A stretch of DNA of 64,000 nt from Sphingobacteriaceae bacterium (GCA_030682795.1 JAUXNJ010000019.1:94627-158626), one strand, 5' to 3'. Positions 16,981 to 63,741 are shown, numbered from the stretch's first letter. The notes: generated by a model from the sequence alone, not told the origin. Numbers and translations: made by a program.

Positions 16981-17027
16981 ATGACTTTCAATCCGATCAA
17001 AAGAATCAGTAAAGTAGGACCCTTGGA

Positions 17028-17648: not shown

Positions 17649-17649
17649 C

Positions 17650-17812
17650 GTCTCTTCTTAAATCTTCGCTTTCGCCAGTATTTTGGCTGATACCGCGGCT
17701 TGTTTAGAAAATTTGACGGTCGATTTTTTAGCTACGGCAGCATTCGCTTTTCTATTGAATGCGCTAGCAACTTCCTTTTTTAAAACAGGTACTACTTTAA
17801 TTGCGTTTGCCA
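17650..17812 (-). CDS. 51-aa Lys/Ala-rich small protein (not in ORF track), possible antitoxin or partner of the GNAT gene
   Basis: Manual translation MANAIKVVPVLKKEVASAFNRKANAAVAKKSTVKFSKQAAVSAKILAKAKI. Its stop lies 1 nt before the GNAT start codon. Confidence 0.2.
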
Positions 17813-18181
17813 TGGTAACACGCTTTGAATCAAAACAAATATAACAAGCTTTATCAACTTAAACTAAACGACTTTAGTTTGTTTCACTGTACCATTTCTG
17901 TAAAATATTGAATCGACTTTAACATTAAATGCAAAAGCTCATGTAAACGCTCCGCATTTTAAAAAAACTAGAAGGCCCCTCCAGAAGCTTTTTCCATGCC
18001 TCGTTGAAGTGCAGAAAAAGTTAAATTAGGGCTACATTATTTAAGTTTAGGGGCCTAAAGTTAAAAAAGCGCTTTGGACAGCATACGCAACCAAATCGTC
18101 CTCATACTTGACTGAGCTAGCCTTTTCCCAGCGCGTGCTCAAAACGGCATTTTGCAGCCGCTTTATATCCACACTAGAAAA

Positions 18182-44926: not shown

Positions 44927-45565
44927 ATGGTACAAGACGTAGATCATTATTTGGTAGATGGCTGCATGCGCTGTTCCCTTGGCGGCACACCGCAGTGTAA
45001 GGTGCACGCCTGGAAAGACGAGCTGGTGGCTTTGCGGCACATTGCTTTGGCCAGCGGCCTCACCGAAACGGTGAAGTGGGGCGTGCCTTGCTATACGTAC
45101 AACGACAAAAACGTTGCCGTGGTGAGCGCCTTCAAGGAATACGCTAGCTTGAGCTTCTTCAAAGGCGCCTTGCTGCCCGATCCCGAAAATTGGCTGGTGC
45201 AGCGCGGCGAAAACGCCCAAGCCACCAAGCTGCTGGCCTTTACAGATGTGGAGGTGATCTTCGAAAAAGAAGAAGTCATCAAAAGCTACCTCCTGAATGC
45301 CATAGAAATTGAAAAATCAGGCAAAAAAGTGGTTTTTGAGAAGGCACCAGAGCCCCATCCCGCCGAATTGCTACAGAAATTTGAGGAGGATGCCGCCTTC
45401 AAACAAGCCTTCTTTGCGCTTACGCCGGGCCGTCAACGGGGCTATGTGCTCTACTTTTCGGAGGCCAAGCAGGCCAAAACGCGTTTGATGCGCATTGAAA
45501 AGTATGTAGAGCAAATTAAAAAAGGCATTGGCATGCTCGACCATTACAAGGCGAAAAAGGAGTAA
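44927..45565 (+). CDS. YdeI/OmpD-associated family protein (DUF1801-like)
   Basis: N-terminal C-x-x-C...C motif and YdeI-like C-terminal half. Confidence 0.45.
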   Translation: MVQDVDHYLVDGCMRCSLGGTPQCKVHAWKDELVALRHIALASGLTETVKWGVPCYTYNDKNVAVVSAFKEYASLSFFKGALLPDPENWLVQRGENAQATKLLAFTDVEVIFEKEEVIKSYLLNAIEIEKSGKKVVFEKAPEPHPAELLQKFEEDAAFKQAFFALTPGRQRGYVLYFSEAKQAKTRLMRIEKYVEQIKKGIGMLDHYKAKKE

Positions 45566-45750
45566 GCAGGGGGTGGTGAATCTGAATCCACCTATAGCCT
45601 ATTTGCCTGCACGCCAGTCGATAACCACAGAGTAGGGAAGCTAAATTTTAAATTTTTTCTTGGCACCCTAAATAATAAGTAAACAGTTGTTGCGTATTTT
45701 AACGGTGCCAAAACAGCGGCTCGCTATCGCTTCTACAAAAATATACTGCT

Positions 45751-46152
45751 ATGAAAAAAGCCCTCCTACTGCAACTCTCCCTCGCCCTGGTGCTGTTGAG
45801 CAGCTGCGCTAAAAACATCCATGTTAACTACCAAAGCGACTCGGCAAATACAGGCAAGGTGGTGCTAAAACCGGCTGAACCCACCAATCGCACCTATGTA
45901 ACCTTTAACGACAGCTTGCTTGTGAACAAAAAGTACGTGAAGTCGGTAACCATCCACAACGTGCCAAGCGGTGAACACCACGTGCATTATACGTCGAACA
46001 ACTATGCGTACAAAGAAAAAATAGACGGTAAGATGACCGTTAATGTGGACAACAACCGCGTGATTACCAAGCTGATTGAAGTGCCTCCTTACAGTGCGGG
46101 TTATTGGATTGGACTGCTCATTAGCTTGCCTATTTTGGTGTTTGTGCTTTAG
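45751..46152 (+). CDS. Lipoprotein with C-terminal TM anchor, unknown function
   Basis: Lipobox LSSCA; AT-richer codon usage. Confidence 0.35.
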   Translation: MKKALLLQLSLALVLLSSCAKNIHVNYQSDSANTGKVVLKPAEPTNRTYVTFNDSLLVNKKYVKSVTIHNVPSGEHHVHYTSNNYAYKEKIDGKMTVNVDNNRVITKLIEVPPYSAGYWIGLLISLPILVFVL

Positions 46153-46304
46153 GTAAAAGCTGAGACAGCTTTCCGCTTTGTTACCTAGGCAAGCCCTTAG
46201 CTGCGCAAACTTGCCCCTAAATGTCAGATCTGTGGCTCGCATCAGCGAGTTACCGCAAGCACTTATACCGCAATAGCACTTTTCATTCCATTTATCAGAA
46301 TACC

Positions 46305-46934
46305 CTAATTTGTTGGCGGTGGCGGCGGGGGTTCAAAAGAAGCCTGAAAATCCGCCATCTCCTTCGGATACAAAATGCAAAGGAGGTCCTGGTATTTTTC
46401 GATTGCCTCTAACCTATGCCCTAAACCTTTGGTTCTGAGAAGCACTTTACCGGAATGGGCAGGACTCGTCAATAAGAATAAACTACTATGTATGGCTTCC
46501 TGGTTCGAGCTGTCAATGGCTGCAAACATGCTTTCAAGTGGGTAGCCCAAGGCCTCGGCAGGATAATATACCCGCGGAAAACACCATCTTTCTTCCTCTC
46601 CAATGAGGTTGACCATTTTTTCAAGAAACTCAATGAAAAGGCTATCGTTAGATTTGGTGAGCTGGAGCTGGTCGAAGCCCTGGCCTTTGCATACCGACAA
46701 ATTCACAACCACATTTAAAGTGTCACCCGCCGCCATGTATTTCGAAAACTCGGTATAATGCTGATGAAGATTAAAAGGCTCCTTTTGTTTTGCGCCTTCT
46801 TCTATACAGCCATACAGCCATACAGTAGCCACCAAGCTGCCTAAAAAGCCTTTTTTTAAATTCACAAACAGCTCGGTACAGCGCATCGTCGATTTCAGAT
46901 ATTCTAATATACGTGCTCCTTTTGGTTCAACCAA
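46305..46934 (-). CDS. Hypothetical protein (poly-Pro C-terminus)
   Basis: ORF only; no recognisable motif. Confidence 0.25.
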   Translation of the reverse strand: MVEPKGARILEYLKSTMRCTELFVNLKKGFLGSLVATVWLYGCIEEGAKQKEPFNLHQHYTEFSKYMAAGDTLNVVVNLSVCKGQGFDQLQLTKSNDSLFIEFLEKMVNLIGEEERWCFPRVYYPAEALGYPLESMFAAIDSSNQEAIHSSLFLLTSPAHSGKVLLRTKGLGHRLEAIEKYQDLLCILYPKEMADFQASFEPPPPPPTN

Positions 46935-46976
46935 TTGCTAGGGGCCCGTTTTTTAAACAACAGCCTGTAGCCATGT

Positions 46977-47366
46977 TCAAGGACCAACCTTTTCTAGCCA
47001 GTAATTCAAAGTCAATCCCAAAGCTCCTAGAAAAAACAGGGATGGTAAGAGCCAGCGAAAAATCTTCCGAAACGCCCTAAGGGCATCCAGCTCCTCTTGG
47101 CCCAAGCGCGAGCCTTGTAAAATGGGATCAAATTTCGAAAGGGGCAAAAAGCCGTACCACAAATCTACCAAGTTGACCCAGGGTAAGGTGCGGCTTTCGA
47201 AAGGCTTTGCATTGCCCCAGCGCCTGAGGTGCTTGGCCAAGCGGCGCAGCTCGCTGATGGTGCGTAAGTAAAAATTAAAGAGTGTCACAGTGATTGCTAA
47301 ACCAATGGCAAGGATAGGGGGACCATAGGTTTCGATGTGGGGCCATATTTGGTGCAGCTTTTGCAT
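46977..47366 (-). CDS. Hypothetical membrane protein
   Basis: Three hydrophobic segments; ORF only. Confidence 0.25.
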   Translation of the reverse strand: MQKLHQIWPHIETYGPPILAIGLAITVTLFNFYLRTISELRRLAKHLRRWGNAKPFESRTLPWVNLVDLWYGFLPLSKFDPILQGSRLGQEELDALRAFRKIFRWLLPSLFFLGALGLTLNYWLEKVGP

Positions 47367-47589
47367 GGATGGATTGAAGATAGTGATTTACTGGTTGTAC
47401 TATTTCCATTCAAAATGTATTTCTGAAACGTCGCTAAACTTGGAGATGGCTTCAAATCAGTCTGATATTTTGCCACTTTGGCATCAGACATCTTTCCTTC
47501 CCAATAGATTGTGTTCAACTTTGACTTATAGGGGACAGGTTACAGGTGTATGGGTGCCACCGTTAGGAGCTGTCAAAGGTTTCGTTCCC

Positions 47590-49179
47590 TTATGGATAAG
47601 CTATTAATTTCAAGCTAAATGGCGGCCAATCTTCAAATTCATTTCTACCTTCGAGAACAAGCTGACCTCCTCTAGGGGTAATCCACTTGCTTCTTAATCG
47701 CCCTTTTCCTGCAGGCTCAATATGATGTACAGGCCCAAAATGAGTATTAAGTGCCTCCATAAGTTGCTCTTGCACAACGGCCATGTACTGGGTAATGGGC
47801 TTTCTATCTGCGAAAATATGCTGCAATCCTGTTCTGAGGTATGGTTGCGTTTCTACAAATTCTAAACGACATCCCAGCCACACGCTATCAGAAGCTCGAA
47901 ACACATGTTCTGTCTTAATGGTAAGTATGGAATCGATAACAGCCCGGTGCATTTGTGTGAATTGCTGCACGGGCGGGTTTTGAATGGGTAAATAATACCC
48001 AACCCCTGTGCCTTGTCTGCTTTTTTGCATATTAGTACTGCCCCTAAACGCCTCAAGTTCATTCACACGTTTAAAATCAGCTATTTGACCAGAAAGAAGC
48101 TCGAAATAGCCCTGCCAGTTTGGTGTATGCTGATAAAGAAGCGTGTCGTAAAGCAATGTCCATTTTTGAAGGTGGAGCAATTCGCCTTTTATTTGCAGCA
48201 CCGTATAATGAACATTGTCTGAATGTCCGTATTCAAGCAAGCGCGAACTATCGTTGGGGTTGAGTCCTCGATATGCATTGTGCCAACGGCTATAAATGCG
48301 TTTAGGACCAAGATCAAGCAGAGGAATCCACTCATTTCCGGAATACTTTGCCACCAAAAGCCGTGTGCTATCATTTATCACATGTAAAAGCTGCCCATTG
48401 GCTACCCAACTCCGATGCAAGCCTAGCCTACTGGTATCAAAAGAATAGTACTCTCTTTCTGTGGTATCAGCCCAAATAGTAGTCTCTCCTTGCGGTTCAA
48501 CAGGAGGAAAAGCAGCAGGGCGGCGCCGTTTTTGGTAGCGATAGGCAGGAGGACAAGGCAAAAGATCCCGTGGATCAGCTATAAGACTAAGTGCACTACT
48601 GTAATCGAGGTAATATTTCCCTTGAAACCGGGTCATTCGGTCACTGCTGTAAGGCGTAATGTATTGTTTTTTCGTTTTTTTATCGATGAACCACGTGCAA
48701 GATCCCCATTCTCCGTAATCTCTATAGTATACGCGATACCGTTCATCTTCATACACTTGATTACTCCGTTTTCGGTATTCTAGCCAGCCGTCTTTCTTTA
48801 AATCGAAGCGATAGCTCCGGTTGTGCATGTAAGGAAGCAAATGTAATTGATCATTTTGTACGTATAAATCGAGGTAAATAGTGTTTTTGCGTACCACATC
48901 GGGCAGCGGTAGTTCACGCAAAAGCTCGCCTGAACGATTAAAAACAAATAGCCGAAACCAATCAGTATTGTGTGGTTGTGGGTCCCGTTCTGTCATCGTC
49001 ACATACCAATGCCCGTCGAAATCGGCCAAATGGGAGATATAAAAATAGCACCCAGGTGTTTGAACCCCGCGTACATCAAGCGTCAGGCTGTCATGTTGTA
49101 ACTCTAATTGGGGATGAGGGCGATCTTGCGCTTGGGTAATGGCCCCACAACACCAGAACATAAACACCAAGCCGAGCAT
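47590..49179 (-). CDS. Secreted 529-aa protein of unknown function
   Basis: The second in-frame ATG (49179) gives a clean signal peptide MLGLVFMFWCCGAITQAQ; the ORF track starts 17 codons upstream (49230). Trp/Tyr-rich, no known domain recognised. Confidence 0.4.
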   Translation of the reverse strand: MLGLVFMFWCCGAITQAQDRPHPQLELQHDSLTLDVRGVQTPGCYFYISHLADFDGHWYVTMTERDPQPHNTDWFRLFVFNRSGELLRELPLPDVVRKNTIYLDLYVQNDQLHLLPYMHNRSYRFDLKKDGWLEYRKRSNQVYEDERYRVYYRDYGEWGSCTWFIDKKTKKQYITPYSSDRMTRFQGKYYLDYSSALSLIADPRDLLPCPPAYRYQKRRRPAAFPPVEPQGETTIWADTTEREYYSFDTSRLGLHRSWVANGQLLHVINDSTRLLVAKYSGNEWIPLLDLGPKRIYSRWHNAYRGLNPNDSSRLLEYGHSDNVHYTVLQIKGELLHLQKWTLLYDTLLYQHTPNWQGYFELLSGQIADFKRVNELEAFRGSTNMQKSRQGTGVGYYLPIQNPPVQQFTQMHRAVIDSILTIKTEHVFRASDSVWLGCRLEFVETQPYLRTGLQHIFADRKPITQYMAVVQEQLMEALNTHFGPVHHIEPAGKGRLRSKWITPRGGQLVLEGRNEFEDWPPFSLKLIAYP

Positions 49180-49481
49180 ATGTTGTTTAATGATCCGCTT
49201 TTGGTAATGGTATGTTTGGTTCAAATACATTTAGCTTTTTAGGTAAAGAAGTGCGGAATCAGCCTTCGAAATCTTGCAATAAATTCACAAACCAGAGAAA
49301 AACATTGGATGATGTCCACATGGCCTTGGAATGTACTTTGTATGAACTAAGTTAAGCAATGAAGCTGTAACAAACCACAGCTTAAGGCCTTTTGCCGAAT
49401 TATTGCATTTCGGTGACACCAGGTCGTTCGCCTGGAACTGCTTTGTAAAGACAGCAAATAACCTTATTTGGAGAAGTTTGA

Positions 49482-49622
49482 CTACTTAAAATGTCCCGGC
49501 ATCCGCTGCAATTCCATCAGCTTCGCCCTCAGCTTTTCCATTTCGTTGCTTTTGTTGGTTTTGAAGCGCAGGATAGGGAAATCGTACTTCTCCAGGATGC
49601 GGTCTTTCATTTGATCGCGCTC
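49482..49622 (-). pseudogene. Truncated remnant of a DUF559 (Vsr-like endonuclease domain) gene
   Basis: Only the C-terminal about 45 codons are in frame (…RDQMKDRILEKYDFPILRFKTNKSNEMEKLRAKLMELQ), resembling the DUF559 C-terminus (…G..VLRF.N.EV…); upstream is frameshifted or absent. Confidence 0.3.
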
Positions 49623-49650
49623 GGCTTATTGGCTGCCGGTTTGGTGGAAT

Positions 49651-50445
49651 TCATTTTATAAATACATGTTCATAATGGTATTCTAAAAACAGCTTCGACG
49701 GGATAAACTTATCTGGAATTTGAATTTTTATATTGTCAAAAGCTTTGAAATAAGCCTGGACTGCCATTTCGCTTTCAAAATCCATGAAAGCCTTTGATAA
49801 GCAAACTTTAAAGTCACTAGTTATGGTCATGTAGCCTTTATCAAACGCCCGGTCGTGCAAGGCATTCAGACAAAGTCCATTTCGTGGATTTAACCTTTCC
49901 TTTTCATTTTTACTCCAAGGAACAATATGGCTCGCAACTAATAAGGCCGGGATTGACAAACCTGTGATACAGCATTTAGAATAGTAATTATTTAGAACCA
50001 TGGTTCTAAAAACAGATTGATTAACCCTGGCTTGAACCTGGCGCATTGCTGACTTACCTTCCAAATCTTTAATATCTAGCAGTATATCGGCATATTTTTT
50101 GGCAATGGTGGTTTTTTGTCTTTCTGCCAAAATTTCCTCGCTCTTAAAAACCAACTCTTCTTGGTTGCTATAAAACTCATCCCAAATGGGCTGTACTTGA
50201 TTCATCCCACCTTTCAGTCCACCAATACCCCTCGCTTGGAGTCCTGGGTCGCAACTGGCAAAATTTCCCAAACGCATACCAATTGAACTAGGTGTCCTGT
50301 CCAAGAGATTAGCCAAATCAATTATCTCAGGGTTATGCTTGTGCATTTTCCCAAAGGGTAACTTCAAATAAAGATTAAAGGCTAAAATTAGCTCTTCACG
50401 AGTCCAGAGGTTTTTGGGCATGGAGGTTTCAACTTGCTTGAACAA
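49651..50445 (-). CDS. HNH endonuclease (HNH_2-type), putative type IV/modification-dependent restriction nuclease
   Basis: C-terminal HNH_2 motif (ALLVASHIVPWSKN...NGLCLNALHDRAFDKGYMTI) with a roughly 130-aa N-terminal domain of unknown fold. Confidence 0.5.
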   Translation of the reverse strand: MFKQVETSMPKNLWTREELILAFNLYLKLPFGKMHKHNPEIIDLANLLDRTPSSIGMRLGNFASCDPGLQARGIGGLKGGMNQVQPIWDEFYSNQEELVFKSEEILAERQKTTIAKKYADILLDIKDLEGKSAMRQVQARVNQSVFRTMVLNNYYSKCCITGLSIPALLVASHIVPWSKNEKERLNPRNGLCLNALHDRAFDKGYMTITSDFKVCLSKAFMDFESEMAVQAYFKAFDNIKIQIPDKFIPSKLFLEYHYEHVFIK

Positions 50446-50914
50446 AAATTAAGTAATTAAAATTAGTTGATTTATTCGGGCATTTGATATGTAAAAACAT
50501 GATTTGTTACGTTTTTATTAAGACGGGCATGTGATCGCATAAGCTGCTTATTAATTGCATTAAAAATTCTATATTTTGAGCTCGGCTGTCATTAACAATG
50601 GTTTCTGTTTTCGTGTGAGCCGCAGTTCAGTATTGCCTTTTGCGTTGGCCAATTCTTCTTTAAACTCCGTGAGATAGGTTAGAGTTGGATTAAGTGTAAT
50701 TCGCTCATACTATTCTCTAATCTGCGGTATGGAGCTTAGCAACTATTCACTTCATTCGCTTATTGGTGAAAGGCACGAGAATCAGCACATAATGCCTCTC
50801 TCTTGGCATTGTACGATTCTAGAAAAGCCTCTATTACTGCCTTTCAGGCTTTGAAAACTGGCTTTAAATCTAGCATTTGATACATTTTCACTTTTTACTG
50901 TTGAAAACTTGTCT

Positions 50915-50931
50915 TGGACATTTTTTGTCCA
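50915..50931 (+). promoter_or_regulatory. Candidate C-box operator palindrome upstream of the RM controller gene
   Basis: Perfect inverted repeat TGGACA-ttttt-TGTCCA about 50 bp upstream of the HTH gene. A second IR AACTAA-N9-TTAGTT lies at about 50957-50977. Confidence 0.35.
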
Positions 50932-50979
50932 TAAACAACAAATCCTTAGTTTTGAAACTAATAGTCCGTTTTAGTTACG

Positions 50980-51297
50980 ATGAAAAATATCAAAAGTTTT
51001 GGCGAGCATTTGAGGTCATTAAGAGAAAATGCGGGGTTAACTCTCAAAACAGTTGCAGAACAAATAGGCGTAGACACGTCTCTACTTGCAAAAATTGAAC
51101 GAAATGAAAGACAACCTTCAAAAAGCCTCATCAAAGACGCAGCATTATTTTTCAAAGTCGATGAAAAAGAATTGACAAAACTGTATTTAAGTGACGTTAT
51201 AGCCTATAAAATTTTAGATGAAGAGGGCGACATAAGTATTCTAGAAGTAGCTGAGACGAAAGTGAAATATCTAACTGCCGTTAAAAATGAAAAATGA
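50980..51297 (+). CDS. XRE-family HTH protein, probable RM controller (C) protein
   Basis: HTH (LTLKTVAEQIGVDTSLLAKIERNER). Directly upstream of, and overlapping, the C5-methyltransferase gene. Confidence 0.55.
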   Translation: MKNIKSFGEHLRSLRENAGLTLKTVAEQIGVDTSLLAKIERNERQPSKSLIKDAALFFKVDEKELTKLYLSDVIAYKILDEEGDISILEVAETKVKYLTAVKNEK

Positions 51298-52600
51298 AAT
51301 CACAGTCATCGAATTATTCGCAGGGGTTGGCGGGTTTCGACTTGGTCTAGAAGGTTGGCAAGGAAAATCCGCTTCTTCCTTTTATCAAAAAGCATTGGAA
51401 TCCTCATACAAAGTGATTTGGAGCAATCAATGGGAACCTTCTACAAAAGCTCAACACGCATCATTGGTTTATGAAAGTAAATTTGGCAAGCAGGATCATT
51501 CTAATGAAGACATAGCTCAGGTGGATGTATCTAGCATACCAGATCATGATTTACTTGTTGGAGGTTTTCCTTGTCAAGACTATTCTGTTGCAACTACTTT
51601 AAAAAACTCAAAAGGTTTAATAGGTAAAAAAGGTGTTCTTTGGTGGAGTATTCATAAAATATTGAGCGATAAAAAGAATAAACCAAAGTACTTATTTCTT
51701 GAAAATGTTGACCGTCTCCTAATCTCTCCATCAGGCCAGCGCGGAAGGGACTTTGCAATAATTCTCAAGAGTTTAAACGACCTTGGCTATGCTGTCGAGT
51801 GGAGAGTAATTAATGCTGCAGATTACGGGATGCCTCAAAGAAGACGAAGGGTTTTTATTTTGGCCTATCTCAATTCCACCGACATTTACCAACAGTTACA
51901 GGAAACCTCGCCTGTAGATTGGATTTTGGAAGAAGGAACCCTCGCCGATGCTTTACCCGTGACATCAAAGATGATGTTATTTCCAACAGAATTTAAATTG
52001 GTTGGAGATGTTGTACATATATCTGATCATTTTAATAAAGATAAAAATGTGGGGGTTTTTGAAAACACTGGAGTTATGCTTAACGGAGTAGTGACTACCA
52101 TCAAAACAGTACCAAGCTATGGTGGTGAACAGACTTTGTTAGGTGATATTCTTCAAAATGGCGAAGTATCCTCCGAATTTTACATTGATAAAGAGGACTT
52201 AGACAAGTGGCATTACCTTAAAGGACCTAAAAAGGAACTTCGCAAAAACGCTGATGGCTTTGAATATCATTATAATGAAGGAGGGATGATTTTTCCTGAT
52301 TCGCTTGACAAACCGTCCAGAACCATAATAACAGGTGAAGGAGGTAAATCCCCTTCAAGATTCAAGCACGTCATACATACTTCAAAAGGATATAGGCGCT
52401 TGTCTCCAGTGGAATTAGAAAGATTGAACATGTTTCCTGATAATCATACCAAACTAGAAGGTGTAAGCGATGCAAAAAGAGCCTTTTTCATGGGTAACGC
52501 ATTAGTAGTTGGGGTAATTGAGAAAATTGGCATTTCTTTATGTCAAAAAATTTCCCAAAATGTTAGCTTACAATCCGGAAAACAAGAGGTCTGTAGTTGA
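51287..52600 (+). CDS. DNA (cytosine-5)-methyltransferase
   Basis: Motifs I (FAGVGGFRLG), IV (GGFPCQDYS), VI (ENV), VIII (QRRRRVF) and X (GNALVVGV). Confidence 0.9.
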   Translation: MKNEITVIELFAGVGGFRLGLEGWQGKSASSFYQKALESSYKVIWSNQWEPSTKAQHASLVYESKFGKQDHSNEDIAQVDVSSIPDHDLLVGGFPCQDYSVATTLKNSKGLIGKKGVLWWSIHKILSDKKNKPKYLFLENVDRLLISPSGQRGRDFAIILKSLNDLGYAVEWRVINAADYGMPQRRRRVFILAYLNSTDIYQQLQETSPVDWILEEGTLADALPVTSKMMLFPTEFKLVGDVVHISDHFNKDKNVGVFENTGVMLNGVVTTIKTVPSYGGEQTLLGDILQNGEVSSEFYIDKEDLDKWHYLKGPKKELRKNADGFEYHYNEGGMIFPDSLDKPSRTIITGEGGKSPSRFKHVIHTSKGYRRLSPVELERLNMFPDNHTKLEGVSDAKRAFFMGNALVVGVIEKIGISLCQKISQNVSLQSGKQEVCS

Positions 52601-53978
52601 TTACGCCAAACGCTTAATAAATAAGACACTACGGGAGGCCTGCGAATCAAATATACTAGAACACAATTTCAAGGGTAAAGGAAATTTTGGTCAAGTACTT
52701 GAGAAATTCTATTTCGGATATGAGCCAAATTCGAATTCTGAGCCAGATTTCAGACATATCGGATTAGAACTCAAATCTACTCCGCTAAAAACGCTGAAAA
52801 CTGGAGAAATAAGGTCGAAGGAACGTTTGGTCCTGAACATTATTAATTACAACTCTATAGTTAACCAAAACTTTGATGGTAGTGATTTTTGGAAAAAGAA
52901 CGCCCAGCTTCTTATAATTTTCTTTTTGCACGAACCTAATATCAAGATTCTAGACTATACGATAAAACTTGTTGATGAGTGGGGATTTTCAGAGACGGAT
53001 TTAAAGGTCATAAAAAAAGACTGGCAAATTATCAGGCAGAAAATACAAGAAGGTAAGGCTCATGAACTATCTGAAGGAGATACTTTGTACCTAGCTGCAT
53101 GCACGAAAGGTGCAAATGCCCAATCGCTACGACAACAACCTCATTCACCAATCCCCGCCAAACAACGCGCCTTCTCTTTGAAACAAGGTTATGTGAACCA
53201 CATTATTGCTACACTCGCAGGAGAGTCCTCCATAAGATATGGCAAGTTAATTCCATCCTTAAACGAATTTACCGAGGAATCCCTTGAAGAAATAATCCTA
53301 AAAAAATTCAAACCATACTATACCAAGAACGTGGAAGAAATTTCTACACTTACTGGAATCAAGCTAAATATGAGTGCGAAAAACTTCTATTCAAAGCTTA
53401 CGCATGCAATCTTAAATATAGACCTTAAAAAAGAAATTGAAGAGCTTGCAAAAGCAAATATTGAAGTCAAAACTATTCGAGTGGAAAAAAACGGCCAGAT
53501 AGAACAATCTGTTTCTTTTCCTGCATTTGAGTTTATTACTCTTTATAATGAACACTGGATTACCAGCGAATTAAAAGAGAAAATTGAAAAGAAATTTCTT
53601 TTTATTTTCTTCAAACATGATGGTTCCTGCTACAGATTAGAAAAAATCAAATTCTGGAACATGCCGTTGACCGACAGAAATGAGGTGCGAAAAATTTGGC
53701 TCAAAACCAAATATGTAGTCCAGAATGGTGACGTTTTCAATGAATATGACAGAGACAGCTTTGGAAATATACGATTGTCGATAAAAGGGCACAAAATTAA
53801 AAAGAATAATTTTCCTAAGATCAGCGATAGTCGCATTTGTCATGTCCGACCACATGGTAGGGATTCTACTGAAACATATCCGCTTCCAGTTCAAGACAAA
53901 AAATTAAACGAAATGGAATATACTAAACAATGCTTTTGGCTCAACAATACATATGTACGTGATGAGATTTATCTGTGA
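52560..53978 (+). CDS. Type II restriction endonuclease, Sau3AI/MutH-like
   Basis: N-terminal MutH-type catalytic motif EPDFRHIGLELKSTPL (D...E-x-K). The 473-aa length is close to the roughly 490-aa R.Sau3AI (N-terminal catalytic plus duplicated C-terminal domain). Overlaps the MTase 3' end. Confidence 0.55.
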   Translation: MLAYNPENKRSVVDYAKRLINKTLREACESNILEHNFKGKGNFGQVLEKFYFGYEPNSNSEPDFRHIGLELKSTPLKTLKTGEIRSKERLVLNIINYNSIVNQNFDGSDFWKKNAQLLIIFFLHEPNIKILDYTIKLVDEWGFSETDLKVIKKDWQIIRQKIQEGKAHELSEGDTLYLAACTKGANAQSLRQQPHSPIPAKQRAFSLKQGYVNHIIATLAGESSIRYGKLIPSLNEFTEESLEEIILKKFKPYYTKNVEEISTLTGIKLNMSAKNFYSKLTHAILNIDLKKEIEELAKANIEVKTIRVEKNGQIEQSVSFPAFEFITLYNEHWITSELKEKIEKKFLFIFFKHDGSCYRLEKIKFWNMPLTDRNEVRKIWLKTKYVVQNGDVFNEYDRDSFGNIRLSIKGHKIKKNNFPKISDSRICHVRPHGRDSTETYPLPVQDKKLNEMEYTKQCFWLNNTYVRDEIYL

Positions 53979-54192
53979 TATGAGAATTCCGTTTCAAATT
54001 GACCCCCTTCGTGTTGGATTAGTTTTGGGGGAGTTTACAACAATAGCATCTTGACTGTCGATCTTAGCCTTGCTACTAGCGTTTTGCATCTACCCGAAGA
54101 TGGCGATTTCGTCGCACTTCACTGTCAACCAAGCACAAAGCTTGATTTAACCTCTGAACCGCCACTTTTGGGCAGGTGGTGTTGGTGGCTGT

Positions 54193-55047
54193 TCATGTTA
54201 TATTATAATAAGATTTCCATCTAGTTCTTGAGCGTAAATTTACAGTCGATATGTAATCATTTAGTGGTCTAAGTCTGGGTTCTGGTCTTGGTATAATACC
54301 TGTTTTAAAAGTTAGACGCCCATCAATAATATTGTAGCAAGAAGCAAAAAAGTCTTTAGCTGGTTGTGGCCATGCAGCTCCATAACCATGTTCACATTCT
54401 AAAAACTTTCTAACACAAAATATAACTAAATCAGAAATTTGAATCATTGGGTTTTTAGTGGAATCTATAGGATAGCTAAACTCTACAACCCTTTTGACCC
54501 TATGTGTTGCAACTGTTAAAAATCGTCTATCATAAAGAATAGTTTCAATATCTGTATGATGATTTTCTTTTTTATCTAAAATCATTAATCCTCTAGCTGA
54601 ACTGCCAAGTTTTCTTTTAATATGGTCGTTGAATTGAGTTATTAAATAATCAAAGCCCAATAAATATGGGGATTTAGAATTGAATGCGGTAGCTACAGCG
54701 CAAGTATTAGCATGAATTAAAGGTTTCGAAAAAGCAATGATATGAACATTATGAGTATGATCTACAAGAATATTTAAAACATCAAATGCTAGTTGATTTC
54801 GTTTAACTCTCGCATGTCCAGCAAAATGCCCAGCGCCATTTGGAGATAAAAGTTCATGCGCGTGTAACTCAAAATTTAGCGGAACTGCTCCTGCAAAATA
54901 TCTGTCTATTATTGTTACAAACTTTTGTTGTGTTGGATTCCATTTTTCATCACTGACAGTTAATCCGCCCATTACAAAAATTGGCTGTTCAGTATTTAGT
55001 AAATCATCTCCAGTATCTCCAGTTTCATCAATATAAAGGAAGTGCAT
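54193..55047 (-). CDS. DUF3800-family protein
   Basis: Hallmark N-terminus LYIDETGDTGDD (DUF3800 'YIDESG'); 284 aa; AT-rich. Confidence 0.5.
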   Translation of the reverse strand: MHFLYIDETGDTGDDLLNTEQPIFVMGGLTVSDEKWNPTQQKFVTIIDRYFAGAVPLNFELHAHELLSPNGAGHFAGHARVKRNQLAFDVLNILVDHTHNVHIIAFSKPLIHANTCAVATAFNSKSPYLLGFDYLITQFNDHIKRKLGSSARGLMILDKKENHHTDIETILYDRRFLTVATHRVKRVVEFSYPIDSTKNPMIQISDLVIFCVRKFLECEHGYGAAWPQPAKDFFASCYNIIDGRLTFKTGIIPRPEPRLRPLNDYISTVNLRSRTRWKSYYNIT

Positions 55048-55289
55048 AGTTATATTTTATTCAGAGTTTCTCTTAAGTGGCTACTAACTGCATGCTTTAC
55101 GTAAGGAGAATAGCCAGTTAAAAGTAGCTTCATCGGTTATTTGCTTTTGCAATATAACTTATGAAAGCTGTTGTTGATGCGCATGGGCATAAAAACATTT
55201 CAGCAACCAGCAAATGGGCGGTGCGGACGTGGTTTTTGGCACGTTGGGTGTTTGAATGGGCTTGGCGGGGGCCGGCGCTTCGACGAGGC

Positions 55290-55736
55290 TCAGCGACCGG
55301 TATTTTCTTCCACCACCCGCTTGTAATTATCCATAATCGCCTGCCAGCCGGCGCGCTGCATGTCGATGGGATTTTCGGTTTCGGCATCGAAGGTTTGTGT
55401 AACGAGTACCTGCTCATCGGCGCCGGTTGCTGAGGGCATCGAAGCATCAAAGGTAATGCGCACGGTGCGGCCGTCGGCGAGGTGGTAGGCAATGAGGGCT
55501 TCGGGTTCCACAGCATCGTAAATGCCTTCAAAATCGAAGGCGAAGGAGCCGTCGCGGGCGGCCATGCGGTAGTTGAAGCTGCCGCCCACACGCAAATCGT
55601 TGGTGGCGGCAGGACAATGCCAGCTGGGGTCGGCAAAGTTCCACTGCATGATGTGCTCGGGCTGGGTCCAGTAGGCCCAGGCTTTAGCGAGGGGGGCTGC
55701 CATGGTTATTTGGAGGGTGACTTTTTCGAAGGACAT
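55290..55736 (-). CDS. SRPBCC/AHSA1-like (activator of Hsp90 ATPase homolog) domain protein
   Basis: 148 aa; N-terminal ITMAAPLAKAWAYWTQPEHIMQW typical of the AHSA1/SRPBCC family. Confidence 0.55.
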   Translation of the reverse strand: MSFEKVTLQITMAAPLAKAWAYWTQPEHIMQWNFADPSWHCPAATNDLRVGGSFNYRMAARDGSFAFDFEGIYDAVEPEALIAYHLADGRTVRITFDASMPSATGADEQVLVTQTFDAETENPIDMQRAGWQAIMDNYKRVVEENTGR

Positions 55737-55841
55737 GGGCTTTCTTTTAAGCCAAATTACGGGTTTTTGGTGAACATTGTGCCCTTGTAGGCTTTGGCAC
55801 TGGCCCAGCTTGATAGTTCAGCGCCGCTGTTTGTGTTTAAA

Positions 55842-56210
55842 TTACAACAGCTTCGGAACAAAAACCAAGAGCCCAATGCTGGCGGCGGTGATGGCACTCA
55901 GTAGAACGCCAGCTGCGGCCAAATCTTTGATGGTTTTAATTTTGCTGTTGGTTTCGGTCGTCATAAAGTCGGCCAGGTTTTCGATGGCGGAATTAAAGAT
56001 TTCGGCCATAAACACCAGTCCAATCGCAAAAATAACGGCCATCCACTCAAAAGCATTCAGCTCAAAAAACAAAGAAGCAGCTATAACAAGCACCGTTGCG
56101 GCCAGGTGCACGCGTGCATTGTGCTCTTCTTTGAACAGAATTTTCAGTCCGTTAAAAGCGTAGCCGAAGCTTTGGAGGCGTTGGCTGATGGAAAAGGCTG
56201 CTTTTTTCAT
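55842..56210 (-). CDS. dgkA: Diacylglycerol kinase / undecaprenol kinase (DgkA family)
   Basis: Three TM helices with conserved E...N...E...D pattern (EEHNARVH; AEIFNSAIENLAD). Confidence 0.65.
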   Translation of the reverse strand: MKKAAFSISQRLQSFGYAFNGLKILFKEEHNARVHLAATVLVIAASLFFELNAFEWMAVIFAIGLVFMAEIFNSAIENLADFMTTETNSKIKTIKDLAAAGVLLSAITAASIGLLVFVPKLL

Positions 56211-56378
56211 GTGGGAATTTAGAGGTTCTTTCGATTCGTCCGTCAAGAATAACCGCAAACATTCAACTTTTATGAAGCATTAAATCCGTTGATTTTTCTA
56301 AATGCTAGGCTGCCTATTCCGGAAGGCTCATGACAACCATCGTTTGATATGCCGTGCGCTCTAGCCCATTTGCTTCTA

Positions 56379-56936
56379 TCAAAGCTTCTTAATCAACTTA
56401 AGGGAACGCAAGTCGTATATATGAATCTCGCTTTTGTCTGTCCTATCGTATTTAAAATTGCCGTTTGAATCAAAATAGCCCGTCACCACCAAGGTGGCGG
56501 TAGATGAATTAACCGTCCACCTCTTTGTGAAAAAGCTGCTGTCCGTCAGTTGTGTTGTTTCTGTGCCATCAGTGGAAATTATAATGATTTGCTTTGGGTC
56601 ATTCCAGTCCACGCCCTTTTTACCATCTAAATCCACCGTATGCGCGCCTACAATCATGAGATTAATGCCGAAGCTGTCAATTTTCACTTGCTCAATTTCT
56701 TCGATGTAGCCGCCACGTGGGAAATCTATCCGTTTTGATTGTCCTGTGGATGTATTGATAAATAATAGATGCTTGCTTTGGGTATCGTACATTTTGCCCC
56801 AGTTCTCAATAGATGCTATGACATAATCGGTGCCTTTAATTTCTTTGAGTTTGTTGAAGAGCACATAATTGTTTTTGTCTTGCCCAAACGTAGCGGAAGC
56901 AAGGGTTGTGAACAAAATGACCAATAGCTGTTTCAT
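56379..56936 (-). CDS. Secreted/lipoprotein of unknown function
   Basis: Signal peptide MKQLLVILFTTLASATFG; AT-rich. Confidence 0.3.
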   Translation of the reverse strand: MKQLLVILFTTLASATFGQDKNNYVLFNKLKEIKGTDYVIASIENWGKMYDTQSKHLLFINTSTGQSKRIDFPRGGYIEEIEQVKIDSFGINLMIVGAHTVDLDGKKGVDWNDPKQIIIISTDGTETTQLTDSSFFTKRWTVNSSTATLVVTGYFDSNGNFKYDRTDKSEIHIYDLRSLKLIKKL

Positions 56937-57198
56937 AGATTCTTTGGTTTTTGTTGGATGTTTGATGCTTGAAATTACTTCAAGAGCCATTTAAGCTCCG
57001 CATTGTTAAACCCAACAGGTGCAGCAAAATTGTGCAGCAAAGTAAATTCTAACCAAAATGTGCTGCTATCTATAGCATTGATAGGCCCGTCACAAAAAAG
57101 GAACCGCAGCTCTTTTTTTATTGGGAGGGTTATGGTTTTGATCATAAAGACGCGATGAATCGCAGCTCTGCACGGTAGATGCGCGATGAATCGCGCGT

Positions 57199-58335
57199 CT
57201 ACTCGTGCTGCATCAAGGTCTCATACCCGCCGTCGGACAAAAACTGCTGCTTTTGCATGAGGCGGAGGTCACTGGCCATCATGTCGGCAACGAGCTCGGC
57301 CAGACTGTGGCGCGGCTCCCAGCCCAGCTTGGTGCGGGCTTTGGTGGCGTCGCCAATGAGCAGCTCTACTTCGGTGGGTCGGAAATAACGCGGGTCAACT
57401 GCTACGAGGGCATCGCCTACCTGCAGTTTGCAGCTGCGAATGCCCAAACTGGCCAAACGCGCCGTATCTATACTGCTCACCAGGCCGGTTTCAGCCAAAT
57501 CACTGCCTTCGAAACGAATACCGATGCCGAGCTCGGCGAAGGCCATCTTCACAAAATCGCGCACATAGGTGGTTACCCCGGTGGCAATCACAAAATCCTC
57601 GGGCTCGTTTTGCTGCAGCATGAGGTACATGGCCTCTACATAATCTTTGGCATGGCCCCAGTCGCGCTGGGCATTGAGGTTGCCCACGTATAACTTGTCT
57701 TGCATGCCGAGCACAATTTTGGCAGCGGCACGGGTGATTTTGCGGGTTACAAAGGTTTCGCCGCGCAAAGGCGACTCGTGGTTAAACAAAATGCCGTTGC
57801 AAGCATACATGCCGTAAGCCTCGCGGTAGTTCACGGTAATCCAGTAGCCATACATCTTGGCCACGCCATAAGGCGAACGCGGATAAAAAGGCGTGGTTTC
57901 ACGTTGCGGCACTTCTTGCACCAAGCCGTACAACTCCGAAGTCGAAGCCTGGTAAATGCGGGTTTTTTGGGTCAGGCCGCAAATGCGCACGGCCTCCAAA
58001 ATACGCAAGGGCCCCAGGGCATCGGCATTGGCGGTGTACTCGGGCGTTTCAAAGCTCACCTGCACATGACTCATGGCCGCGAGGTTGTAAATTTCGTCGG
58101 GCTGCACCTCCTGGATGATGCGAATTAAATTGGTGCTGTCGGTGAGGTCGCCATAATGCAACTTGAGCCGCACCCCTTTGTCGTGCGGGTCCTGGTACAA
58201 ATGGTCGATGCGATCGGTATTAAAAAGCGATGCGCGGCGCTTGATGCCGTGCACCATATAGCCTTTGTTCAACAAAAACTCGGCGAGGTAAGCCCCGTCT
58301 TGTCCGGTAATGCCGGTGATTAATGCGGTTTTCAT
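57199..58335 (-). CDS. gmd: GDP-mannose 4,6-dehydratase
   Basis: N-terminal Rossmann [15 protein letters not shown], catalytic YxxxK region, full-length GMD. Confidence 0.9.
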
Positions 58336-63399: not shown

Positions 63400-63741
63400 A
63401 TGGAAATAATAGCCAAAGCCAAGCTTGAGAAATTGAAGCGCAAAAATCGCGGCAATACTGCGCTCGGCACGGCTATAGATACCCTCATTGAAGACTTAGA
63501 GCAAACTAGCTGCTTGACTTTTGAACAGTTAAAGCAGATACGGCCAGACGCAGATTTAGTACACAATGATGGCTTTTGCTTTTTTGATATTCATGTCCAC
63601 AGGACCATGATATTGATTGAATTTGAAGATACCGGTGAAGCAACCATTGTTTGGTGCGGGAGCCATGACGAATATGAGCTAACCTTCAAAAACAACAAGA
63701 ATACCATTAGAAAATGGTTAGAGAAACAAGGATGGATTTAA
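63400..63741 (+). CDS. higB: HigB-family type II toxin (RelE-like mRNA interferase)
   Basis: 113 aa. The C-terminal ...IEFEDTGEATIVWCGSHDEYELTFKNNK resembles the HigB core (…V.HV.TH.EYDK…). Confidence 0.5.
   Translation: MEIIAKAKLEKLKRKNRGNTALGTAIDTLIEDLEQTSCLTFEQLKQIRPDADLVHNDGFCFFDIHVHRTMILIEFEDTGEATIVWCGSHDEYELTFKNNKNTIRKWLEKQGWI

What the first reader, a model, noticed from the sequence alone, without database searches (positions are those of the whole stretch)
49231..55290. AT-richer defence island: HNH nuclease + C-M-R type II RM system + DUF3800, bounded by gene remnants
From about 49.2 to 55.1 kb the base composition drops visibly; for example the 50.45-50.98 kb spacer and the RM genes are far more A/T-rich than the flanking gmd, S8 and AHSA1 genes. 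Only immunity-type functions sit here: a standalone HNH_2 nuclease, an XRE controller, a C5-methyltransferase, a MutH/Sau3AI-like endonuclease and a DUF3800 gene. A DUF559 (Vsr-like) fragment (49482-49622) lies at the left edge, and fragmentary coding-like sequence lies in the 50.45-50.98 kb spacer. This is the window's clearest horizontally acquired block. The uncharacterised genes (HNH N-terminal domain, DUF3800) are candidates for undescribed defence functions by guilt-by-association.
Basis: partly seen in the sequence, partly recalled or inferred. Interest (0 to 1): 0.7.

Follow-up and report, generated by a model that had tools for sequence, protein, structure and literature searches.

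The report
Strain-specific AT-rich defence island
A 5.8-kb AT-rich block that close relatives lack carries a Sau3AI-type restriction-modification system plus two poorly understood nucleases; it is a real but fairly ordinary horizontally acquired bacterial immunity island.

Summary
Window 49453-55289 has GC 0.373, against 0.519 (sd 0.013) for equal-sized core windows, and its tetranucleotide usage is three times further from the core than any core window.

In contigs whose gmd protein is 98% identical, AHSA1 and orf546 are conserved (83-88% DNA identity). Between them lies an unrelated 1.8-kb cargo. In 91% relatives the whole 45.6-57.2 kb stretch is missing. The island is therefore swapped-in cargo inside a hypervariable hotspot. 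It has no integrase, tRNA or flanking repeats.

Contents:
- A tight C-M-R operon with a Sau3AI-family endonuclease (NCBIfam equivalog, above cut-off) and a C5-methyltransferase.
- A solitary HNH_2 nuclease from a large, highly conserved family. Its N-terminal domain is a homeodomain/Myb-like HTH with no Pfam model.
- A DUF3800 protein with a confident RNase HII/HIII-like fold.

Relatives of both nucleases recur in defence loci. The HNH gene follows DrmA-DrmB or sits next to C5-methylases and Vsr. DUF3800 sits inside BREX type 3 operons. Neither has a tested function.

The left-edge remnant is real but weak, and closer to DUF2726 than DUF559. The "coding fragments" in the spacer were not confirmed. 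No DUF3800-associated RNA was found.

Verdict: new member of known kinds, modest interest.

The parts
45561..57198 (.). Hypervariable hotspot between the core genes DUF1801/OmdA (44927-45565) and gmd (57199-58335). The island is nested inside it.
   Evidence: In L123-L126 (gmd 91% identical), gmd abuts DUF1801/OmdA, so window 57199 corresponds to 45561. L118/L119, L120 and the window each carry different cargo here.
49453..55289 (.). The AT-rich defence island itself (5.84 kb). The limits are good to roughly +/-20 nt on the left and +/-150 nt on the right.
   Evidence: GC is 0.373 against a core value of 0.519, and the tetranucleotide distance is 0.533 against a core maximum of 0.173. Homology to L119 stops at window 49433-49452 on the left and 55307 on the right.
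49485..49625 (-). C-terminal remnant of a PD-(D/E)xK-type gene (DUF2726/DUF559/Vsr-like). It lies 25 nt downstream of the HNH stop and has GC of about 0.47-0.50.
   Evidence: Translation. Pfam gives DUF2726 E 3.5e-4 (profile 89-124 of 126) and DUF559 E 0.063. It aligns weakly with the C-terminus of the Vsr that follows the HNH homologue in Flavobacterium. The gene caller reports a 42-aa ORF here.
49651..50421 (-). Solitary HNH_2 endonuclease of 256 aa: an N-terminal ~100-aa homeodomain/Myb-like HTH 'reader', a helical linker and the HNH_2 catalytic domain.
50422..50979 (.). Long AT-rich divergent intergenic spacer with a hairpin-rich stretch at 50780-50939. Two palindromes lie just upstream of the C gene and are candidate operators: TGGACA-N5-TGTCCA at 50915-50931 and TTAGTTT-TG-AAACTAA at 50946-50961.
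   Evidence: No Pfam, Rfam or homology hits. The + strand fold has z -3.95. The local z is -5.3 on + and -4.4 on - at 50780-50939. Palindromes confirmed.
50980..51297 (+). XRE-family HTH protein of 105 aa in the controller (C) position. It overlaps the methylase start by 11 nt.
   Evidence: Pfam HTH_19, HTH_31 and HTH_3 at about 1e-12. PADLOC Control_protein models match only weakly, at 1.7e-5 and 9.2e-5.
51287..52600 (+). C5-cytosine DNA methyltransferase of 437 aa.
   Evidence: Pfam DNA_methylase 8e-62. PADLOC MTase_II PDLC03329 1.3e-179. NCBIfam dcm 1e-66.
52560..53978 (+). Sau3AI-family type II restriction endonuclease of 472 aa. It overlaps the methylase end by 41 nt.
   Evidence: NCBIfam NF040973 (equivalog) 2.8e-150, 501 bits against a cut-off of 300. 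Two MutH-like stretches. PADLOC REase_II 1.3e-94. Start taken from the called gene.
53979..54192 (.). Intergenic scrap between the convergent R and DUF3800 genes. Its GC of 0.463 is higher than either neighbour, so it is a likely seam between separately acquired modules.
   Evidence: GC. Fold z -0.36. No Rfam hit. No homology.
54193..55047 (-). DUF3800 protein of 284 aa, a predicted RNase HII/HIII-fold nuclease with the invariant N-terminal D7-E8 and C-terminal Q203-x-x-D206 motifs.
55048..55289 (.). Right junction. 55048-55190 is AT-rich (0.357) and is the DUF3800 upstream region. 55191-55289 is GC-rich (0.586) and of unknown origin.
47590..49230 (-). Left conserved flank: orf546, with no family assignment.
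   Evidence: 88% amino-acid identity to the 547-aa protein of L119. DNA homology spans 47293-49433.
55290..55736 (-). Right conserved flank: the AHSA1-family gene.
   Evidence: Pfam AHSA1. 83% DNA identity to L119 over 55307-55760.

Best explanation
Window 49453-55289 is a horizontally acquired composite defence island. It sits in a hypervariable cargo hotspot (45.56-57.2 kb) between the core genes gmd and DUF1801/OmdA of a Sphingobacteriaceae-like Bacteroidota genome. It carries three modules that most likely act independently.

1. A C-M-R type II restriction-modification operon of the Sau3AI family.
- By family inference, the C5-methyltransferase protects host GATC sites as GAT(m5)C and the two-MutH-domain endonuclease cuts unmethylated GATC.
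- The small XRE protein probably autoregulates the operon through the palindromes just upstream.

2. A solitary HNH_2 endonuclease.
- Its nearly invariant N-terminal homeodomain/Myb-like HTH is a portable DNA 'reader' domain.
- Family members occur without any methyltransferase, so the protein is best read as a methylase-independent restriction nuclease. That makes it type IV-like or otherwise self-restrained.
- The same gene is recruited into m5C-based defence loci, including DISARM-like DrmA-DrmB operons.

3. A free-standing DUF3800 nuclease with an RNase H type 2 fold. It probably cuts a nucleic-acid intermediate of invading elements, with RNA-DNA hybrid as the leading guess from the fold.

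Shown here: the composition, the indel, the gene identities, the folds and the family contexts.
Inferred: GATC specificity, controller function, modification dependence of the HNH enzyme, and any defence role or substrate of DUF3800.
For: Composition: GC 0.373 against 0.519 +/- 0.013. Tetranucleotide distance 0.533 against a core maximum of 0.173.

Indel:
- L118/L119 (gmd 98% identical) keep AHSA1 (83% DNA identity) and orf546 (87% DNA, 88% amino acid).
- They hold a 1.78-kb unrelated cargo between them.
- L120 and L123-126 have other cargo or none.

Restriction-modification:
- NF040973 Sau3AI equivalog, 501 bits against a cut-off of 300.
- C5 methylase at 8e-62 (Pfam) and 1.3e-179 (PADLOC).
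- Overlapping C-M-R reading frames.
- GATC occurs 109 times against 147.5 +/- 11.6 expected in the window.

HNH:
- Full-length PADLOC model match at 1.7e-93.
- Invariant H165, N181, D190 and D194.
- 7208 homologues.

HNH contexts:
- DrmA-DrmB-HNH with an 8-nt overlap.
- C5-MTase-SNF2-NOV_C-HNH.
- HNH-70aa-82aa-Vsr with no methylase.
- Vsr, a decayed C5-MTase and then HNH in N. gonorrhoeae.
- Solitary among housekeeping genes.
- None found in 2.9 million viral contigs.

DUF3800:
- DE and QxxD motifs invariant.
- Homologues lie inside BREX type 3 operons, with PglXI, BrxHI/II, PglZ, BrxA and BrxC all at E = 0 to 1e-87.
- Others lie next to PsyrTA/IetS, TIR proteins or a type I REase.
Against: - No integrase, transposase, tRNA or flanking repeat explains how the block moved.
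- The recognition sequence is inferred from family membership only, and the GATC depletion is modest.
- The XRE protein matches generic HTH models better than curated C-protein models.
- The HNH reader is not one of the known modified-base readers (EVE, SRA, SBD). Nothing here shows modification dependence.
- The AlphaFold model of the HNH half is poor (pLDDT below 50 at residues 160-185).
- Nine of ten large neighbours of DUF3800 tested in non-BREX loci have no PADLOC hit. The BREX-linked loci share 72-88% DNA identity in their flanks and may represent one lineage.
- The closest DUF3800 relatives (78%) sit next to housekeeping genes.
Confidence: 0.75

Rival explanations
1. The HNH nuclease is not independent. 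It is a second restriction subunit tied to the neighbouring C5-methyltransferase (a type II HNH enzyme of the AlwI/HphI kind), so the block is one system with two endonucleases.
For: HNH_2 includes classical type II enzymes such as AlwI, BbrI and HphI (PMC5714182). PADLOC's type II 'HNH' model PDLC03546 matches the C-terminal half at 4e-45. Family members often lie near C5-methylases.
Against: The gene is divergent from the C-M-R operon and separated from it by 534 nt. Near-identical family members occur with no methylase within 6-7 kb, or beside a decayed methylase. The methylase already has a cognate Sau3AI-type partner.
Confidence: 0.1
2. HNH and/or DUF3800 are not immune genes. They are selfish cassette-like nucleases or nucleic-acid housekeeping enzymes (for example R-loop removal) that merely accumulate in variable regions.
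For: For DUF3800, DNA similarity to its closest relatives stops exactly at the ORF ends, and the contexts are unrelated (PEP carboxylase, peptidase M28). The abundant HNH variant P0043 lies between methylmalonyl-CoA mutase and an aminotransferase. Most non-BREX neighbours of DUF3800 have no defence hit. No experimental defence phenotype is reported in the papers read.
Against: Both genes are repeatedly built into operons of bona fide defence systems with overlapping reading frames: DrmA-DrmB-HNH and PglXI-DUF3800-BrxH. DUF3800 is also linked to retrons and CRISPR loci in the literature. A patchy cross-phylum distribution at 46-50% identity is typical of defence genes.
Confidence: 0.2
3. DUF3800 here works with an unrecognised structured RNA encoded beside it, as described for the eleven DUF3800-associated RNA motifs. 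The candidate positions are the 214-nt downstream scrap or the hairpin-rich spacer.
For: Weinberg et al. 2017 found 11 unrelated RNA motifs next to DUF3800 genes, several ending in terminators (PMC5737381). 53979-54192 is GC-richer than its neighbours and ends in a CCCCC...GGGGG hairpin. The 50446-50979 spacer folds with z -3.95 on the + strand.
Against: There is no Rfam hit at E <= 1 in 45-58 kb, nor at gathering score in 20 homologous loci. The 214-nt region folds no better than shuffles, z -0.36. Flanks of the closest DUF3800 relatives share no sequence with the window. In BREX-3 operons there is no intergenic room at all. The spacer signal is symmetric on both strands, meaning DNA palindromes, and lies 3 kb from DUF3800.
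Confidence: 0.08
4. The block is native DNA whose low GC reflects local constraint, or it is a prophage or ICE remnant rather than a defence island.
For: Other short low-GC patches exist in the window (11-12, 17-18 and 56-57 kb).
Against: It is absent from the syntenic site in all relatives examined. There are no phage or conjugation genes, integrase or tRNA. PHROG matches are weak and to families of unknown function. There is no DNA match to phages beyond a 70-nt methylase motif.
Confidence: 0.03

Closest known systems
Sau3AI-family type II restriction-modification systems (Sau3AI, LlaKR2I-like; C5 methylation of GATC)
   Same: The endonuclease passes the NCBIfam equivalog model, has two MutH-like domains and sits next to a C5-cytosine methyltransferase. 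Plasmid-borne relatives at 33-41% identity are annotated the same way and are also paired with a C5 methylase.
   Different: The gene order is C-M-R, with an upstream XRE-type putative controller whose reading frame overlaps the methylase. The best plasmid relative is ordered R then M and has no controller annotated. Specificity was not measured.
Modification-dependent HNH_2 restriction enzymes (VcaM4I EVE-HNH, PDB 6yex; phosphorothioate-dependent SBD-HNH enzymes, NCBIfam NF045808)
   Same: The same HNH_2 catalytic domain at the C-terminus, a reader-plus-nuclease layout, similar size, and stand-alone genes that need no methylase.
   Different: It is not EVE, SRA or SBD. Modification dependence is unproven.
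DISARM (DrmA-DrmB-DrmC plus methylase)
   Same: HNH homologues at 65-80% identity are the third, translationally overlapping gene after DrmA and DrmB, which is the position of the DrmC nuclease.
   Different: The window has no DrmA or DrmB, so here the HNH gene stands alone. DrmC is a PLD-type nuclease, not an HNH.
DUF3800 RNase H-like accessory proteins of type VII retrons and of CRISPR V-A2/VI-F loci
   Same: The Pfam family, the DE motif and the RNase H2-like fold (PMC7736814, PMC10910872, PMC12669027).
   Different: It is free-standing, with no reverse transcriptase, TPR fusion, Cas gene or known DUF3800 RNA motif nearby. It keeps the QxxD motif, whose Q the retron-linked clade is reported to lack. 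This subfamily is instead embedded in BREX type 3 operons.
Defence islands in chromosomal integration hotspots between core genes
   Same: Strongly deviant composition, strain-specific cargo between conserved flanks, and several alternative cargos at one site.
   Different: No recombinase or recognisable attachment repeats. Turnover probably proceeds by homologous recombination in the flanks, which is inferred.

Membership tests
Type II RM, Sau3AI family | Endonuclease matches the curated Sau3AI equivalog model above its cut-off | tested here: met
   NF040973 at 2.8e-150, 501.3 bits against a cut-off of 300, covering profile positions 3-474 of 475
Type II RM, Sau3AI family | Tandem MutH-like domains in one polypeptide | tested here: met
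   Pfam MutH 4.9e-36 with two matched stretches
Type II RM, Sau3AI family | Adjacent cognate C5-cytosine methyltransferase | tested here: met
   DNA_methylase 8e-62 and PADLOC MTase_II 1.3e-179. The gene overlaps the R gene by 41 nt
Type II RM, Sau3AI family | Recognition and cleavage of GATC, blocked by GAT(m5)C | not testable with these tools
   Only indirect evidence: GATC occurs 109 times against 147.5 +/- 11.6 expected in the window
Controller (C) protein of RM systems | Small HTH protein upstream of, and co-transcribed with, RM genes, with palindromic C-boxes before its own gene | tested here: inconclusive
   The position and the overlap with M fit. Two unique palindromes lie 19-65 nt upstream. 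Curated Control_protein models match only at 1.7e-5 and 9.2e-5, weaker than generic HTH models
Type IV (modification-dependent) HNH restriction enzymes | Intact HNH-type catalytic domain | tested here: met
   HNH_2 1.7e-13. H165, N181, D190 and D194 are invariant in 32 sequences. The domain aligns with the HNH endonuclease of PDB 6yex
Type IV (modification-dependent) HNH restriction enzymes | Recognised modified-base reader domain (EVE, SRA, SBD, etc.) | tested here: not met
Type IV (modification-dependent) HNH restriction enzymes | Occurs without a cognate methyltransferase | tested here: met
   No methylase within +/-6-7 kb in L117 or L138-L145. The methylase is decayed in N. gonorrhoeae
Type IV (modification-dependent) HNH restriction enzymes | Cleaves only modified DNA | not testable with these tools
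   Needs enzyme assays
DUF3800 (PF12686) RNase H-like nucleases | Pfam model above cut-off, with the N-terminal DE and C-terminal QxxD motifs | tested here: met
   56.5 bits against a cut-off of 21. D7, E8, Q203 and D206 are invariant in 41 sequences
DUF3800 (PF12686) RNase H-like nucleases | RNase H type 2 fold | tested here: met
DUF3800 (PF12686) RNase H-like nucleases | Neighbouring DUF3800-I to -XI, drum or skipping-rope RNA motif | tested here: not met
   No Rfam hit at E <= 1 in 45-58 kb, and none at gathering score in 20 homologous loci
Type VII retron / CRISPR V-A2 accessory DUF3800 | Adjacent reverse transcriptase or Cas12/Cas13 gene, or a TPR fusion | tested here: not met
   All island ORFs are accounted for, and none is an RT, Cas or TPR protein
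Horizontally acquired genomic island | Deviant composition and absence from the syntenic site of close relatives | tested here: met
Horizontally acquired genomic island | Integrase or transposase, tRNA target, flanking direct repeats | tested here: not met
   No tRNA. No convincing flanking repeats. No recombinase family hit

The most novel reading that the evidence does not exclude
The two 'extra' nucleases may be portable, single-gene effector cassettes that larger, mechanistically unresolved defence systems borrow.

- This DUF3800 subfamily, an RNase H-fold enzyme, is a conserved in-operon member of BREX type 3, lying between PglXI and BrxHI/II. It could supply a nuclease step to a system for which no nuclease is known.
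- The HNH family carries a previously undescribed homeodomain-like reader domain. That domain is shared with MTaX1 and DUF4268 proteins. The HNH gene takes the DrmC position after DrmA-DrmB.

In the window both cassettes would act alone, giving a simple handle for working out what each contributes.
Probability: 0.15. Interest if true: 0.6.

Novelty: new member of a known kind. Interest (0 to 1): 0.33.

Why it matters
In itself this is a textbook case: a restriction-modification system and two accessory nucleases dropped into a variable chromosomal hotspot. Its practical value is as a compact natural context for two widespread and experimentally untouched nucleases.

- The HNH family has more than 7,000 members, and its reader domain has no Pfam model.
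- This DUF3800 subfamily recurs inside BREX type 3 operons.

If either gene confers phage resistance on its own, that would assign a function to a large protein family. It could also give a foothold on how BREX-3 or DrmAB-type systems damage invading DNA. The hotspot between gmd and DUF1801/OmdA, with four different cargos in four relatives, is a useful marker site for mining further cargo in this lineage.

Tried and rejected
1. Close relatives via AHSA1 in representative genomes: the best hit was 56% identical with no synteny. Exact look-ups of AHSA1, gmd and DAGK returned only the source contig. The indel test succeeded only through gmd homologues.

2. A DUF3800-associated RNA:
- Rfam was negative in the window and in 20 loci.
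- The 214-nt downstream region is not unusually stable.
- No conserved flank was seen among 80 loci or the closest relatives.
- Rejected for this subfamily at sequence level.

3. Coding remnants in the 534-nt spacer and in the GC-richer scraps: no Pfam hit and no blastn or tblastx hit to any fetched locus, plasmids or phages.

4. The idea that the Neisseria HNH homologue is R.NmeDI: rejected, because R.NmeDI is 351 aa and the paper does not mention this locus.

5. Target-site duplications or terminal repeats at the junctions: none found.

6. Phage carriage:
- No HNH homologue in viral contigs.
- Only four full-length DUF3800 relatives there.
- PHROG matches were weak and to families of unknown function.

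7. Which PADLOC system the model PDLC04132 'HNH' belongs to could not be determined from the tool output.

Full report
**Observation**

The core of the window runs at 0.52-0.58, while 49.25-55.1 kb runs at 0.33-0.40.

With limits refined by comparison with relatives (49453-55289), the block has GC 0.373. The 163 core windows of the same length have mean 0.519, sd 0.013 and minimum 0.489. Its tetranucleotide L1 distance to the core is 0.533, against a mean of 0.128 and a maximum of 0.173 for core windows. This is far beyond chance.

The low-GC zone is layered:
- 45.56-49.45 kb sits at 0.45.
- 56.0-57.0 kb sits at 0.40-0.43.
- AHSA1 is host-like at 0.58.

Inside the island, three short GC-richer scraps separate the modules: 49453-49650 (0.465), 53979-54192 (0.463) and 55191-55289 (0.586).

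**Gene content**

All five genes are intact.

- HNH_2 nuclease, 49651-50421(-). The family alignment shows the start is MPKNLW at 50421.
- XRE-type HTH protein of 105 aa, 50980-51297(+).
- C5-cytosine methyltransferase, 51287-52600(+). Scores: Pfam 8e-62, PADLOC MTase_II 1.3e-179.
- Sau3AI-family endonuclease, 52560-53978(+). It scores 501 bits on NCBIfam equivalog NF040973 (cut-off 300) and has two MutH-like stretches.
- DUF3800 protein, 54193-55047(-).

C overlaps M by 11 nt and M overlaps R by 41 nt, so C-M-R is one tight operon.

The 42-codon ORF just downstream of HNH (49485-49625, minus strand) matches the extreme C-terminus of DUF2726 (E 3.5e-4) and, more weakly, DUF559 (E 0.063). Both are below the curated cut-offs.

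The supposed coding fragments in the 534-nt spacer gave no family hit and no homologue.

**Is it an indel?**

The window matches a single Logan assembly contig. The identical HNH protein is deposited at NCBI from a Sphingobacteriaceae MAG. A scan of representative genomes with AHSA1 found nothing closer than 56% and no synteny.

gmd homologues gave the needed relatives.

- In L118/L119 (gmd 98% identical) the order is gmd, 157aa, DAGK, 160aa, AHSA1, [41aa, 210aa, FtsJ-like SAM-methyltransferase, 41aa], 547aa.
- blastn aligns L119 13341-13776 with window 55760-55307 (AHSA1, 83%).
- It aligns L119 15556-17700 with window 49433-47293 (orf546 region, 87%; protein 88%).
- Nothing aligns in between.

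So 5.84 kb in the window replaces 1.78 kb of unrelated genes between conserved flanks.

A third configuration (L120, same gmd protein) has gmd, AHSA1, GH19, then other genes, then DUF1801. In L123-L126 (gmd 91%), gmd lies directly beside DUF1801/OmdA, which corresponds to window 57199 joined to 45561.

The island is therefore strain-specific cargo nested in an 11.6-kb hypervariable hotspot. No tRNA, recombinase or flanking repeat was found, and the junctions show no target duplication. Turnover by recombination in the conserved flanks is the likeliest route, though this is inferred. The GC-richer scraps suggest that the HNH/RM part and the DUF3800 gene arrived separately, which is also inferred.

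**The restriction-modification system**

Family membership is as firm as sequence allows. By analogy with Sau3AI, the methylase should make GAT(m5)C and the endonuclease should cut unmethylated GATC. This rests on established knowledge of the family and was not tested here.

GATC is modestly depleted in the window: 109 observed against 147.5 +/- 11.6 expected.

The XRE protein sits where a controller would. Two perfect palindromes, each unique in the window, lie 19-65 nt upstream of its start: TGGACA-N5-TGTCCA at 50915-50931 and TTAGTTT-TG-AAACTAA at 50946-50961. Curated C-protein models match only weakly, so 'controller' remains a positional inference.

Plasmid relatives of the endonuclease (33-41% identity) are annotated as Sau3AI family. 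In the one plasmid relative inspected (H31, 41.5% identical) the endonuclease lies beside a C5-methylase, in the order R then M, with no controller annotated.

**The HNH nuclease**

It belongs to a large family of 7208 hits. The top 120 are 62-80% identical and about 256 aa long. The first 100 residues are almost invariant, and the catalytic H165, N181, D190 and D194 are conserved.

A PADLOC model named 'HNH' matches it end to end at 1.7e-93. The only solved relative is 6yex, an entry named simply 'HNH endonuclease', which I recall to be the modification-dependent enzyme VcaM4I. It shares just the HNH part. The phosphorothioate-dependent model NF045808 matches only the C-terminal half, below its cut-off.

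A search with the N-terminal 120 residues alone found 1767 cluster representatives. Most have the same architecture. Some fuse the domain to MTaX1 ('methylase-associated X1'), to MTaX1 plus DUF4268, or to a DksA/TraR zinc finger. It is therefore a portable reader module with no Pfam model.

Contexts of family members:
- DrmA-DrmB-HNH with an 8-nt overlap, in two lineages.
- C5-methylase, 439aa, SNF2 helicase, NOV_C protein, then HNH.
- HNH, 70aa, 82aa, then Vsr, with no methylase, in Flavobacterium.
- Vsr, a truncated C5-methylase, 113aa, then HNH between pheS and pheT in N. gonorrhoeae.
- An abundant variant flanked only by small ORFs among housekeeping genes.
- A Hymenobacter plasmid.
- None in 2.9 million viral contigs.

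An intact nuclease that often lacks a methylase, yet keeps turning up beside m5C machinery and Vsr, is best explained as a methylase-independent restriction nuclease. That means type IV-like, or held in check in some other way. I put about 0.45 on modification dependence specifically.

The literature notes that HNH_2 is the commonest nuclease near certain RM-linked two-component-like genes in Bacteroidetes, together with Vsr. It also notes that HNH_2 includes type IIS enzymes such as HphI and AlwI.

**The DUF3800 protein**

D7-E8 and Q203-x-x-D206 are invariant. By strand topology, D158 is a likely third carboxylate; this is inferred.

The subfamily (255 hits, 282-285 aa) is spread across Bacteroidota, Synergistota, Nitrospirota and Deinococcota at 46-50% identity, which is typical of mobile genes.

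Among the 80 metagenome loci:
- At least 13 longer ones place the gene inside a BREX type 3 operon: BrxC, (variable), PglXI, DUF3800, BrxHI/II, PglZ, BrxA. Reading frames abut or overlap. PADLOC E-values for the Brx/Pgl proteins run from 0 to 1e-87.
- Others lie next to PsyrTA plus IetS, TIR proteins or a type I HsdR.

The BREX-linked loci share 72-88% flank identity and may represent one lineage. Nine of ten large neighbours tested elsewhere have no defence hit. The closest relatives (78%) sit beside housekeeping genes, and their DNA similarity to the window stops exactly at the ORF ends. Defence association is therefore real but partial.

**DUF3800 and RNA**

Weinberg et al. described eleven unrelated structured RNAs next to DUF3800 genes, so I looked for one here.
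- Rfam finds none in 45-58 kb at E <= 1, and none in 20 homologous loci.
- The 214-nt region downstream of the gene folds no better than shuffles, z -0.36.
- No flank is conserved.
- BREX-embedded copies have no intergenic room.

The long spacer between HNH and C does fold unusually well on the + strand (z -3.95). The signal is concentrated at 50780-50939 and appears on both strands (z -5.3 and -4.4). That points to DNA palindromes or hairpins in a divergent regulatory region rather than to a strand-specific RNA. It has no detectable homologue. This remains unexplained.

**Comparison, novelty and verdict**

Every component belongs to a known kind:
- a Sau3AI-type RM system;
- an HNH_2 restriction-type nuclease already modelled in PADLOC;
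- a DUF3800 RNase H-fold protein already noted as a retron and CRISPR accessory;
- a defence island in a chromosomal hotspot.

The island is a new member of these kinds.

Two modestly new points emerged from the family survey rather than from the window itself. This DUF3800 subfamily is a conserved in-operon member of BREX type 3. The HNH family carries an unmodelled homeodomain-like reader and occupies the DrmC position after DrmA-DrmB.

Neither point would strongly surprise a specialist, and neither function is tested. Overall interest is about 0.33.

Noticed in passing
window 63400-63741 (-) and on to the window end: A HigB-toxin gene (PF09907) with an HTH_3 partner that runs off the window, in a GC 0.41 patch. 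Homology of relatives L118/L119 to the window stops at 63300 and their gene tables list no HigB/HTH pair there, so this looks like a second strain-specific insertion.
   Followed up: partly
window 45561-57198: The whole stretch between DUF1801/OmdA and gmd is a cargo hotspot, with four different gene sets in four relatives. One of them is an empty site where gmd abuts DUF1801/OmdA.
   Followed up: yes
L065 3181-9689; also L045, L046, L050, L056, L057, L064, L068, L070, L075, L085: DUF3800 homologues (47-50% identical) sit between PglXI and BrxHI/II inside BREX type 3 operons, with abutting or overlapping reading frames. This gene is not part of the published BREX-3 gene set as I recall it.
   Followed up: partly
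L112 429-7771; L132-L135 1-6771: HNH homologues (65-80% identical) are the third gene after DrmA and DrmB, overlapping DrmB by 8 nt, where DISARM normally has the PLD nuclease DrmC.
   Followed up: partly
window 50122-50421 (-), HNH residues 1-100: A nearly invariant ~100-aa N-terminal domain with no Pfam model and a homeodomain/Myb-like fold. In other proteins it is fused to MTaX1 (PF20296), DUF4268 or a DksA/TraR zinc finger.
   Followed up: partly
window 50780-50961: A hairpin-rich stretch (local fold z -5.3 on + and -4.4 on -) and two perfect palindromes unique in the window, at 50915-50931 and 50946-50961, just upstream of the C gene. They are possible operators, but the rest of the 534-nt spacer is unexplained.
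   Followed up: partly
L117 7771-8685; L115 7768-8212; L138-L145: The HNH gene is often followed, or preceded, by small overlapping ORFs of 60-82 aa with no family assignment, and in Flavobacterium by a Vsr gene. These are possible regulators or immunity partners, and they are absent from the window.
   Followed up: no
L127 4950-6741 (N. gonorrhoeae, between pheS and pheT): Vsr, a truncated C5-methylase, a 113-aa ORF and an intact HNH homologue (40% identical). The record is a 2.17-Mb chromosome filed as a plasmid in PLSDB.
   Followed up: partly
window 11001-12000 and 17001-18000: Two further 1-kb low-GC patches (0.399 and 0.397) in an otherwise 0.52-0.56 background. They were not examined.
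   Followed up: no
window, whole: GATC is under-represented: 109 occurrences against 147.5 +/- 11.6 expected from dinucleotide-preserving shuffles. This is consistent with, but not specific to, pressure from a GATC-cutting enzyme.
   Followed up: no
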